Assembly (NCBI RefSeq): GCF_003334785.1
Contig: NZ_QOWV01000001.1
DNA: 64,000 nucleotides
Direction: 5' to 3' (one strand)
Origin: Escherichia coli
GTDB lineage: Bacteria; Pseudomonadota; Gammaproteobacteria; Enterobacterales; Enterobacteriaceae
Shown piece after piece: positions 14,552 to 14,830 of the stretch. Position 1 is the first letter of the stretch, and each line of letters opens with the position of its first letter. Position numbers and translations under genes: made by a program. The notes beneath the pieces are model-generated. The model was given only the letters and a program-made list of their open reading frames with translations, had not been told where the DNA came from and did not search any database.

Positions 14552-14830
14552 TATAGATGCTGATATAACTCAATTAGTTTATTTTAAACAATAAGATACA
14601 AGTTACCTTTCTGGTTTTGCGAAGACTGATTATTGATGACATGAACGGCAAATCGACCTGATTAAAAACCTAACAGATGAAATGGCTCACTGAAGCCGAG
14701 GGGATTTTTAGGATTATCAGGTGCGGAACTCATCGGGGCGCGGGCATCCTTGCCCACAGAGACGCCGGATAGATTTAAGCAAGCCAACCATTAATCAAAA
14801 ATCAGTGTTGCAAAAACGGGGGTGACCATA
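14552..14830 (+). ncRNA. Candidate guide (bridge/seek-like) RNA region in the IS right end
   Basis: 279-bp non-coding right end; the left end is only about 70 bp. Contains two 8-mers identical to the insertion target: aggtgcgg (14720..14727) and ggggattt (14700..14707). Small hairpin gggca-tcct-tgccc at 14742..14755. Transcript ends not defined. Confidence 0.35.
14818..14830. repeat. Right 13-bp inverted repeat of the IS (gggggtgaccata)
   Basis: Reverse complement of 13482..13494; lies exactly at the right junction. Confidence 0.75.

What the first reader, a model, noticed from the sequence alone, without database searches (positions are those of the whole stretch)
14552..14830. Candidate guide (bridge/seek-type) RNA in the IS right end, with two 8-mers identical to the insertion target
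The non-coding DNA of the element is asymmetric: about 70 bp on the left and 279 bp on the right, the layout of IS1111-type members whose guide RNA lies 3' of the recombinase. Within a 30-nt stretch the right end carries aggtgcgg (14720..14727), identical to the target left flank (13464..13471), and ggggattt (14700..14707), identical to the native target across the GA core into the right flank. Two target-derived 8-mers this close together is what a target-binding loop would look like, though each alone could occur by chance.
Basis: inference. Interest (0 to 1): 0.75.

Follow-up and report, generated by a model that had tools for sequence, protein, structure and literature searches.

The report
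ISSfl8 guide (seek/bridge) RNA gene

Summary
The element at 13476..14832 is ISSfl8, an IS1111-type member of the IS110 family, inserted after codon 2 of treA. Its 281-bp 3' non-coding region holds a conserved structured RNA on the + strand.

- A covariance model built only from relatives hits 14634..14769 (141.6 bits, E 5e-27).
- 97.7% of the cells of the consensus fold are paired, and 19 pairs show compensatory changes.

Two hypervariable blocks flank a hairpin at 14684..14697.

- GAUGAAAU (14676..14683) is complementary to the top strand right of the insertion point (ATTTCATC).
- GGGGAUUU (14700..14707) has the sense of the left flank plus TTT.

Across 31 relatives with different guides, both blocks follow their own flanks (z 9.6 and 11.4; 0 of 10,000 permutations). 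Order and overlap match the published seekRNA layout, and the same model finds the validated ISEc11 seekRNA.

It sits in the invariant scaffold (stem P4 and a junction) and is absent from the usual ISSfl8 target, so its match is coincidence. A shared GA core is not supported in relatives.

Durrant et al. 2024 already list ISSfl8 as having a bridge RNA in its right end, so this is correct but known. treA is a rare secondary site, seen in 2 of 5,426 genomes.

The parts
13476..14832 (+). ISSfl8 (1357 bp), an IS1111-type element of the IS110 family. Sequence runs TAATGAT...GACCATAGA. Inserted in treA between codons 2 and 3.
   Evidence: 100% identical copies are annotated as ISSfl8 in E. coli genomes. 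The ends were fixed by comparison with 80 relatives and with the empty site.
13483..13494 (+). Left subterminal inverted repeat, ATGGTCACCCCC, preceded by the 7-nt extension TAATGAT (13476..13482).
   Evidence: Read from the sequence. The 7/3-nt extension rule is from PMC11187229.
13547..14551 (+). Transposase gene, 334 aa. DEDD domain PF01548 plus PF02371, with the GLVPRQYSTG motif.
   Evidence: NCBIfam NF033542 'IS110 family RNA-guided transposase', 351 bits. Pfam domains are given.
14613..14815 (+). Conserved RNA scaffold (the 'long' seekRNA/bridge RNA region). The outer closing helix is ambiguous: either 14615-22 with 14808-15 (RNAalifold), or 14613-20 with 14779-85.
   Evidence: Alignment of 49 relatives, consensus fold, pair counts. 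The alternative helix is described.
14656..14722 (+). Target-binding module (the likely short seekRNA). Stem P4 is 14656-64 with 14714-22. Stem P5 is 14669-71 with 14710-12. An internal loop carries the two guides. The apical hairpin P6 is 14684..14697.
   Evidence: P4 has 6 of 9 pairs with compensatory changes. Coordinates are mapped.
14674..14683 (+). Top-strand (right-target) guide, CAGAUGAAAU. It is the reverse complement of A|TTTCATC(TG). It matches 8 nt contiguously at treA and 9 nt at the usual DUF4942 site.
   Evidence: Covaries with right flanks: z = 9.6, 0 of 10000 permutations.
14700..14708 (+). Bottom-strand (left-target) guide, GGGGAUUU(U). Same sense as the target GGGGA|TTT. It overlaps the other guide's footprint by 4 bp (ATTT).
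   Evidence: Covaries with left flanks: z = 11.4, 0 of 10000 permutations.
14719..14726 (+). It is scaffold (the 3' strand of P4 plus a junction), not a guide.
   Evidence: Conserved as CAGG(U/C)GCGG in relatives with unrelated targets. It has no match in the DUF4942 or arnC targets.
14729..14733 (+). Candidate right-donor guide, CUCAU. It is complementary to left-end positions 3-7 (ATGAG) in relatives. ISSfl8 itself has ATGAT, which gives one mismatch. RNAalifold also predicts it as the 3' strand of helix P2.
   Evidence: By analogy with ISEc11, where the aligned segment AUUACAU is complementary to left-end positions 3-9. Inconclusive.
14737..14766 (+). Hairpin P7 (GGCGCGGGC...GCCC...GACGCC), lying between the two candidate donor guides.
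   Evidence: All 4 apical pairs show compensatory changes.
14769..14776 (+). Candidate left-donor guide, AUAGAUUU. Same sense as the right-end terminus ATAGA plus the TTT of the flank.
   Evidence: The ISEc11 equivalent AUAUAAA equals its right end plus core. IS5075-like elements have AUAGAUUC and a flank starting TTC. Inferred.
14808..14813 (+). TTGCAA, the -35 of the promoter assembled only in the excised circle. After a 17-bp spacer comes the -10 GATAAT, made of 14831-32 joined to 13476-79.
   Evidence: Own scan of the joined ends. No promoter-like site is found inside the integrated element. The concept is from PMC11187229.
14818..14832 (+). Right subterminal inverted repeat, GGGGGTGACCAT, plus the 3-nt extension AGA.
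13471..13475 (+). Left half of the target (GGGGA) in treA. The right half, TTTCATC, is at 14833..14839.
   Evidence: The empty site GGGGGATTTCATC is present in 5314 of 5426 E. coli genomes.

Best explanation
**What it is.** The 3' non-coding region of ISSfl8 encodes, on the same strand as the transposase gene, the element's seekRNA (bridge RNA). This is the RNA that tells the DEDD transposase where to insert.

**Fold.** The core folds into a stem (P4/P5) whose internal loop carries two guide segments on either side of a small hairpin (P6).
- The 5' segment, (CA)GAUGAAAU at 14674..14683, pairs with the top strand just right of the crossover (ATTTCATC).
- The two footprints overlap by 4 bp and together specify about 12 bp, GGGGATTTCATC.

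**Donor module (inferred).** A second module probably reads the element's own ends. It consists of CUCAU at 14729..14733, hairpin P7, and AUAGAUUU at 14769..14776.

**Expression (inferred from sequence and literature).** The RNA is most likely made by read-through from the promoter that forms only when the ends are joined in the excised circle (TTGCAA, 17 bp, GATAAT), and is then trimmed.

**Outcome.** Insertion is precise and leaves no duplication. The treA copy is a rare insertion at a secondary site that keeps the 12-bp core of the usual target.

**Shown here.** The conserved fold, the strand, guide-target covariation, homology to a validated seekRNA, and the precise empty site.

**Inferred.** Expression and processing, binding to the transposase, the donor guides, and the chemistry of recombination.
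For: **Identity of the element**
- ISSfl8 at 100% identity, with an IS110-family RNA-guided transposase.
- 12-bp subterminal repeats with 7-nt and 3-nt extensions, and 71 bp versus 281 bp of non-coding DNA.

**Variable blocks and targets**
- In the alignment of 53 unique non-coding regions, only two blocks are hypervariable, and they flank a conserved hairpin.
- In 31 distinct guide pairs, the blocks match their own flanks far better than permuted flanks. The top-strand block scores 250 against 182.5 +/- 7.1. The bottom-strand block scores 273 against 196.8 +/- 6.7. None of 10000 permutations reaches either value.
- The known IS4321/IS5075 target (the Tn21 inverted repeat, TTTATT|TTCCGTTTT) is reproduced by the blocks of the IS5075-like loci.

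**Structure**
- 45 pairs, 97.7% of cells paired, against 32-44% when partners are slid.
- 19 pairs have compensatory changes, and 0 of 500 shuffles reach the observed values.
- Many G-U pairs are present, which fit the + strand only.

**Covariance-model searches**
- A model built without ISSfl8 or its two closest variants hits only 14634..14769 on the + strand in the 64-kb window (141.6 bits, E 4.6e-27).
- The same model hits the experimentally validated ISEc11 seekRNA region (28.9 bits, E about 9e-6). There the published guides, CAGUAUUUU and GUGAAAAUA for the target GTGAAAATACTG, fall in the same two blocks.

**Natural ISSfl8 sites.** All three share GGGGA|TTTC.
- DUF4942 gene, 57 of the 60 best copies: GGGGA|TTTCATCT.
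- treA: GGGGA|TTTCATCA.
- arnC: GGGGA|TTTCTTCTG.

**Literature**
- The layout, with the top-strand match 5' of the bottom-strand match and overlapping footprints, is that described for IS1111 members in PMC11187229.
- Durrant et al. list 'ISSfl8 RE IS1111' among elements with a predicted bridge RNA.
Against: - No expression data exist for ISSfl8. Nothing here shows that the RNA is made, processed or bound by the transposase.
- Rfam 15 has no matching family.
- There is no internal promoter, so the RNA depends on read-through or on the circle promoter.
- The outer closing helix is ambiguous, and the helices that never vary carry no covariation information.
- The donor-guide assignment rests on invariant sequences plus a single cross-lineage comparison.
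- ISSfl8's own left end (TAATGAT) mismatches the candidate right-donor guide.
- The 96% variant L003 has a top-strand block that does not fit its single known flank in register.
Confidence: 0.9

Rival explanations
1. One reading: the target-binding loop is formed by the two same-sense 8-mers GGGGAUUU and AGGUGCGG. [quoted passage not shown]
For: Both strings are present and identical to the treA site. Two same-strand 8-mer matches have a simulated probability of about 0.01.
Against: - AGGUGCGG lies in invariant scaffold. Half of it is the 3' strand of stem P4, and it is conserved in relatives with unrelated targets.
- The usual target (57 of the 60 best copies) has CCAGTGGG or CAGATGGG at that place.
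- In the RNA it lies 3' of GGGGAUUU, whereas in the DNA it lies 5' of GGGGATTT, so the two cannot form one collinear duplex.
- Relatives do not share a GA core.
- The published architecture needs one guide for each DNA strand.
Confidence: 0.03
2. The conservation of the right end reflects DNA-level functions only, such as transposase binding sites, end recognition or the -35 of the junction promoter. On this view no functional RNA is made.
For: The subterminal repeat and TTGCAA are DNA signals inside the conserved stretch. Several helices never vary. No expression data are available.
Against: - Nineteen base pairs keep pairing through changes on both sides, and G-U pairs are strand-specific.
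- Two blocks change in step with both strands of the target, which a protein-binding site would not explain.
- The homologous region of ISEc11 was recovered as RNA from purified transposase and is required in trans.
Confidence: 0.04
3. The target-like 8-mers are chance matches, and the treA insertion is unrelated to any guide.
For: A single 8-mer match is not rare (P = 0.14 on the same strand, 0.30 on both strands).
Against: - Three independent ISSfl8 sites share the 9-12 bp specified by the two blocks.
- Covariation across the family gives z of about 10.
Confidence: 0.01

Closest known systems
seekRNA of IS1111-family elements (ISEc11, ISKpn4, ISPa11, ISPst6; Siddiquee et al. 2024, PMC11187229)
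   Same: - Encoded in the long non-coding region 3' of the transposase gene, in an element with subterminal inverted repeats.
- The top-strand-complementary segment lies 5' of the bottom-strand-complementary segment, and the two flank a hairpin.
- The footprints overlap at the insertion point, there is no target duplication, and a promoter forms at the circle junction.
- A covariance model from the ISSfl8 clade aligns to the ISEc11 seekRNA with the guides in the same positions.
   Different: - The transposase is only about 35% identical to TnpEc11 (supplementary identity table).
- The target is different: GGGGATTTCATC against GTGAAAATACTG.
- There is no experimental evidence for ISSfl8 itself.
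- The shared sequence between donor and target at the crossover is only 1-3 nt (GAT in ISSfl8, T in relatives), against a 4-nt AAAT in ISEc11.
[quoted passage not shown]
   Same: - Same clade: about 70% identity at the amino-acid level.
- Same ends, TAATGAG...GACCATAGA.
- The same RNA scaffold, alignable base by base (loci L074-L081).
   Different: - The guide blocks differ, AAAACGGAAA and UAUAUUUUC, and match TTTATT|TTCCGTTTT.
- They have hundreds of insertions in plasmid-borne transposon ends, whereas ISSfl8 sits mostly in one chromosomal island gene.
IS621-type bridge RNA (IS110 group; Durrant et al. 2024 PMC11208160; Hiraizumi et al. 2024 PMC11208158)
   Same: - The principle is the same: one structured RNA pairs with staggered stretches of both strands of the target, and probably of the donor, for a DEDD recombinase.
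- Durrant et al. predict a bridge RNA in the right end of ISSfl8 (Supplementary Table 5).
   Different: - The RNA lies in the right end, not the left.
- The order of the guides is reversed: the top-strand guide is 5'.
- The overlap is 4 nt rather than a 2-nt CT core.
- The element has long subterminal repeats.
- The candidate donor guides sit around a hairpin in a multi-branch region rather than in a simple internal loop.

Membership tests
IS1111 group of the IS110 family (the element) | DEDD transposase with PF01548 and PF02371, and the GL-P----S/TG motif | tested here: met
   NF033542 at 351 bits. PF01548 and PF02371 are listed. GLVPRQYSTG is present in the translation.
IS1111 group of the IS110 family (the element) | Subterminal inverted repeats of 11-13 bp, with a 7-nt left and a 3-nt right extension | tested here: met
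   ATGGTCACCCCC at 13483-94 and GGGGGTGACCAT at 14818-29. The extensions are TAATGAT and AGA. The rule is from PMC11187229.
IS1111 group of the IS110 family (the element) | The long non-coding region lies downstream of the transposase gene | tested here: met
   71 bp upstream and 281 bp downstream.
IS1111 group of the IS110 family (the element) | Site-specific insertion without target duplication | tested here: met
   Left flank joined to right flank gives an intact treA start in 5314 of 5426 genomes. Three natural sites share GGGGA|TTTC.
seekRNA / IS1111-type bridge RNA | [quoted passage not shown] The top-strand one is 5', and the footprints overlap at the insertion point. | tested here: met
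   GAUGAAAU at 14676-83 (reverse complement of ATTTCATC) and GGGGAUUU at 14700-07. The overlap is ATTT.
seekRNA / IS1111-type bridge RNA | The guide segments change together with the target among related elements | tested here: met
   Permutation test over 31 guide pairs: z = 9.6 and 11.4, 0 of 10000.
seekRNA / IS1111-type bridge RNA | A conserved secondary structure that presents the guides in an internal loop | tested here: met
   RNAalifold consensus and pair counts: 97.7% paired, 19 compensatory pairs, 0 of 500 shuffles.
seekRNA / IS1111-type bridge RNA | Homology to an experimentally validated seekRNA | tested here: met
   Model R1, built without ISSfl8, hits ISEc11 at 1592-1726 with 28.9 bits and E about 9e-6. 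The published guides fall in the same blocks.
seekRNA / IS1111-type bridge RNA | The RNA is expressed, co-purifies with the transposase, and is required for circle formation and insertion | not testable with these tools
   This needs RNA sequencing, purification of the ribonucleoprotein, and transposition assays.
Bridge RNA in the strict sense (two-loop, bispecific) | A second loop complementary to both strands of the donor (the joined IS ends) | tested here: inconclusive
   - The only candidates are CUCAU (14729-33) and AUAGAUUU (14769-76), on either side of hairpin P7.
- They are supported by the equivalent 7-mers in ISEc11.
- They are invariant within the clade, and CUCAU mismatches ISSfl8's own left end.
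IS110-group (IS621-like) bridge RNA | Encoded in the left end, with the bottom-strand guide on the 5' side of the loop and a 2-nt core | tested here: not met
   The RNA lies in the right end, the top-strand guide is 5', and the overlap is 4 nt.
Any Rfam 15 family | A match at or near the gathering score | tested here: not met
   The only hit in 13300..15000 is a chance SNORD29 match inside the transposase gene, E = 2.5.

The most novel reading that the evidence does not exclude
The two conserved segments around hairpin P7, CUCAU (14729..14733) and AUAGAUUU (14769..14776), may form a donor module with the same polarity as the target module: top-strand guide, then hairpin, then bottom-strand guide. 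Its 3' guide would read the right-end terminus plus the first two or three bases of the flank.

This would mean the RNA proof-reads the right-end/flank junction of the integrated copy during excision. It would explain why the right flank begins with TT in almost all relatives, and why IS5075-like elements carry AUAGAUUC next to a TTC flank.
Probability: 0.3. Interest if true: 0.4.

Novelty: already known. Interest (0 to 1): 0.22.

Why it matters
The finding adds nothing conceptually new. RNA-guided target choice by IS110/IS1111 elements was published in 2024, and ISSfl8 is already listed with a predicted right-end bridge RNA.

What this analysis adds is documentation:
- the actual guide segments of ISSfl8;
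- its roughly 12-bp specificity, GGGGATTTCATC;
- three natural target sites that show which distal mismatches are tolerated;
- a base-by-base scaffold for the IS4321/IS5075/ISSfl8 clade.

It also explains a natural treA (periplasmic trehalase) disruption in two E. coli genomes as a secondary-site insertion by an RNA-guided element.

Tried and rejected
- **Rfam scan** at E up to 10. No relevant family was found.
- **Single-sequence folding.** The full non-coding region has z = -4.1, but the 161-nt core has only z = -1.4. This was not decisive, so I moved to comparative analysis.
- **aggtgcgg as a guide.** Rejected: it is conserved scaffold.
- **ATTATC (14713..14718) as a right-donor guide** complementary to GA|TAAT. 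Rejected: it is the 3' strand of stem P4 and covaries with the 5' strand, not with the ends.
- **A universal GA core.** Rejected by the relatives' flanks.
- **Megablast hits that cover only the non-coding region** (H26-H37), considered as possible orphan guide-RNA genes. Rejected: the O104:H4 pAA example has a diverged, frameshifted transposase gene next to it.
- **Natural retargeting in the 96% E. coli variant.** This led nowhere, because all its copies sit at one locus.
- **An internal promoter for the RNA.** None was found.
- **In-clade covariation test of the alternative outer helix.** Uninformative, because both strands are almost invariant.

Full report
**1. What is at the coordinates**

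The window is E. coli. The region between treA (minus strand, ending near 13475) and dhaM holds a 1357-bp insertion sequence at 13476..14832.
- It carries a 334-aa transposase gene at 13547..14551.
- Megablast finds 100% identical copies annotated 'IS110-like element ISSfl8 family transposase' in many E. coli genomes.
- The protein matches NCBIfam NF033542, 'IS110 family RNA-guided transposase', at 351 bits. It has Pfam PF01548 and PF02371.
- The ends have 12-bp subterminal inverted repeats, ATGGTCACCCCC at 13483-94 and GGGGGTGACCAT at 14818-29. A 7-nt left extension (TAATGAT) and a 3-nt right extension (AGA) lie beyond them. This is the IS1111-family rule stated by Siddiquee et al. (PMC11187229).
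- Non-coding DNA is 71 bp on the left and 281 bp on the right.

Joining the two flanks reconstitutes the native treA start (..GGTGCGGGGGATTTCATCAATC.., i.e. ATGAAATCCCCC on the gene strand). That sequence is found intact in 5314 of 5426 complete E. coli genomes. The insertion is therefore precise and leaves no duplication.

**2. The observation**

- ggggattt is at 14700..14707, as stated.
- aggtgcgg is at 14719..14726, one base left of the stated position. Its copy in the left flank at 13464..13471 is real.
- In Markov simulations of the non-coding region against a 40-nt target window, one same-strand 8-mer match occurs in 14% of trials and two in 1.0%.
- Counting both strands, the real sequence has four matches. 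The other two are GATGAAAT (14676..14683), the reverse complement of the right flank ATTTCATC, and ATTGATGA (14632..14639). Three or more matches occur in 0.6% of simulations.

**3. Relatives**

One scan of the species-representative genome collection returned 80 loci encoding transposases 66-90% identical to this one.
- They come from Xenorhabdus, Photorhabdus, Serratia, Yersinia and Burkholderiales.
- Six are IS4321/IS5075-like copies sitting in Tn21-type inverted repeats.
- All share the ends TAATG(A/G)G...GACCATAGA.

Aligning 53 unique 3' non-coding regions shows a strongly conserved scaffold from about 14610 to the right end. It contains exactly two hypervariable blocks on either side of a conserved hairpin, GGCUCA-CUG-AAGCC.
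- The 5' block corresponds to 14672..14683.
- The 3' block corresponds to 14698..14708.

In each relative, the 5' block is the reverse complement of that element's right flank. The 3' block has the sense of its left flank followed by TT(T). Examples:
- L006: GGGGC|TTTTTTATGG
- L011: GGGAGT|TTTTGTT
- L055: CTCTG|TTAACTTC
- IS5075-like L077: TTTATT|TTCCGTTTT, which is the known target

A permutation test over 31 distinct guide pairs gives the following.
- 5' block: observed 250 in-register matches against 182.5 +/- 7.1 for permuted pairings (z = 9.6).
- 3' block: observed 273 against 196.8 +/- 6.7 (z = 11.4).
- None of 10,000 permutations reaches either value.

**4. Structure and strand**

RNAalifold on 49 sequences predicts 45 pairs, mapped to the window:
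- an outer helix;
- P2 (GAUGA 14635-39 with UCAUC 14730-34);
- a small hairpin P3;
- the target arm: P4 (14656-64 with 14714-22), P5 (14669-71 with 14710-12), and P6 (14684-86 with 14695-97);
- hairpin P7 (14737-45 with 14752-66).

Counting pairs on the alignment:
- 97.7% of cells are standard pairs, against 32-44% when the 3' partners are slid by 1-3 columns.
- 19 pairs have changes on both sides.
- 0 of 500 shuffles reach the observed value on any of the five measures.
- P4 (6 of 9 pairs) and the tip of P7 (4 of 4 pairs) carry most of the compensation.
- G-U pairs are frequent, which fits the + strand only.

A covariance model built from 46 relatives, excluding ISSfl8 and its two closest E. 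coli variants, finds a single hit in the 64-kb window. It is at 14634..14769 on the + strand, with 141.6 bits and E = 4.6e-27.

**5.

- AGGU (14719..14722) is the 3' strand of P4, and GCGG (14723..14726) lies in the junction that follows.
- The motif CAGG(U/C)GCGGAAC is conserved in relatives whatever their target.
- The usual ISSfl8 target has CCAGTGGG or CAGATGGG at the corresponding place.
- In the RNA the motif lies 3' of GGGGAUUU, but in the DNA it lies 5' of GGGGATTT, so a single collinear duplex is impossible.
- Its identity with the treA flank is best read as coincidence. So is ATTGATGA, which shares GATGA with the real guide.
- The GA at 13474-75 is simply the last two bases of the left-flank footprint (GGGGA). 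Relatives keep ...ATAGA at the right end while their left flanks end in GC, GT, TG, GG, TT and others.
- The only base common to donor and target at the crossover across the clade is the T that follows it. In ISSfl8 the shared stretch happens to be GAT.

**6. Natural targets of ISSfl8**

Among the 60 best-matching copies, 57 lie in a DUF4942-domain gene of genomic islands, 2 in treA (strains JKHS016 and AST198), and 1 in arnC. The sites are as follows.

| Site | Sequence | 5' guide match | 3' guide match |
|---|---|---|---|
| DUF4942 gene | CCAGTGGGGA\|TTTCATCTTA | 9 contiguous nt | 8 contiguous nt |
| treA | GTGCGGGGGA\|TTTCATCAAT | 8 contiguous nt | 8 contiguous nt |
| arnC | AGGCGGGGGA\|TTTCTTCTGG | 9 of 10, one internal mismatch | 8 contiguous nt |

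The effective specificity is about GGGGATTTCATC. The treA copy is a rare secondary-site insertion of an intact element, with the transposase and the RNA region both 100% identical to the other copies.

**7. Comparison with what is known**

- Siddiquee et al. showed for ISEc11, ISKpn4, ISPa11 and ISPst6 that an RNA from the 3' non-coding region co-purifies with the transposase and is required in cis or in trans. It carries a top-strand match 5' of a bottom-strand match, with overlapping footprints, and it can be reprogrammed.
- Durrant et al. describe the IS621 bridge RNA. There the left-target guide pairs with the bottom strand, the right-target guide pairs with the top strand, and both include the core. 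They predicted bridge RNAs in the right end of 93% of IS1111 elements. Their Supplementary Table 5 lists 'ISSfl8 RE IS1111'.
- I fetched an ISEc11 copy. The ISSfl8-clade model aligns to its non-coding region at 1592-1726 (28.9 bits, E about 9e-6).
- The published guides for GTGAAAATACTG, CAGUAUUUU and GUGAAAAUA, fall in the same two blocks.

The window's RNA therefore belongs to the validated family, and its existence in ISSfl8 was already predicted. TnpEc11 and the ISSfl8 transposase are only about 35% identical. IS4321/IS5075 are the closest named relatives, at about 70%.

**8. Donor recognition (inferred)**

- In ISEc11, the only matches of 6 nt or more between the RNA region and its own circle junction are two. 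AUUACAU is complementary to left-end positions 3-9. AUAUAAA has the sense of the right-end terminus plus the 4-nt core. They lie on either side of the P7-equivalent hairpin.
- The aligned ISSfl8-clade segments are CUCAU (14729-33), complementary to left-end ATGAG, and AUAGAUUU (14769-76), with the sense of ATAGA|TTT.
- This gives a donor module with the same polarity as the target module. It fits the remark by Durrant et al. that IS1111 donor-binding nucleotides sit in a multi-loop.
- The evidence is thin. The sequences are invariant within the clade. CUCAU is also predicted to pair in P2. ISSfl8's own left end reads ATGAT.
- The IS5075-like elements have AUAGAUUC next to a flank that begins TTC. 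This is a hint that the segment reads into the flank.

**9. Expression**

- No sigma-70-like promoter is found inside the integrated element.
- Joining the ends creates TTGCAA, a 17-bp spacer, and GATAAT. This junction promoter is described for IS1111 members.
- Read-through of the transposase transcript followed by processing is therefore the likely source of the RNA. This is inferred.

**10. Verdict**

The other 8-mer and the GA core are not. The real partner guide lies at 14676..14683 on the other side of the hairpin. The feature is real, ordinary for its family and already catalogued, so interest is low. The most novel reading still open concerns the donor module that may read the right-end/flank junction.

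Noticed in passing
window 13476..13496 and 14833..14838 (treA, minus strand): The IS separates the treA promoter, ribosome-binding site and first two codons (ATG AAA, now at 14833-38) from the rest of the gene. A GTG-started ORF (11784..13496) begins inside the IS left end and reads in frame into treA. It would replace the N-terminal MK by MGVTISL ahead of the signal peptide. Whether it is expressed is unknown.
   Followed up: no
window 13482: The ISSfl8 left end reads TAATGAT. All of the roughly 75 relatives whose left end could be read have TAATGAG or TAATGGG. 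The change creates a mismatch with the candidate right-donor guide CUCAU.
   Followed up: partly
window 14632..14639 versus 14836..14843: A fourth 8-mer match to the treA site: ATTGATGA in the conserved scaffold is the reverse complement of the right-flank TCATCAAT. Together with AGGTGCGG, this gives two scaffold 8-mers matching this secondary site. The simulated chance of two or more matches on both strands is about 0.05, and ATTGATGA shares GATGA with the true guide. Most likely coincidence.
   Followed up: partly
L087 (NC_018666.1, pAA-EA11 of E. coli O104:H4), 1445..2721: Megablast hits that cover only the non-coding region (H26-H37) are diverged IS110-family elements. Here the transposase gene is frameshifted and lies about 0.5 kb from aggR. 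Their RNA scaffold is better conserved at the DNA level than their transposase gene. They are not orphan guide-RNA genes.
   Followed up: partly
L005-L084, right junctions: The right flank begins with TT in nearly all relatives, whatever the rest of the target (one TA in L075). The left end begins with TA. Only the first T is common to donor and target.
   Followed up: partly
window 14613..14620 with 14779..14785, versus 14615..14622 with 14808..14815: There are two mutually exclusive closing helices. RNAalifold pairs UUUUGCGA with UUGCAAAA, which overlaps the -35 TTGCAA. The alternative, GGUUUUGC with GCAAGCC, has an exact counterpart in ISEc11 (AGGUUGC with GCAACCU) and a compensated variant in L049. 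Both strands are almost invariant in the clade, so the choice is unresolved.
   Followed up: partly
L003, L088-L091 (E. coli, downstream of tssE): A 96%-identical variant of ISSfl8 has GGGGC in its left-target guide and a left flank ending in GGGGC. Its top-strand block (UAAAUAAAAU) does not fit its right flank (TTATTTTCGG) in register. All copies found lie at this single locus, so drift after insertion cannot be told apart from an off-target event.
   Followed up: partly
NZ_AP043606.1 (strain AST198): One of the two genomes with the treA insertion holds a second ISSfl8 place in the same chromosome. This fits a recent copy-out from a resident copy. The second site was not inspected.
   Followed up: no
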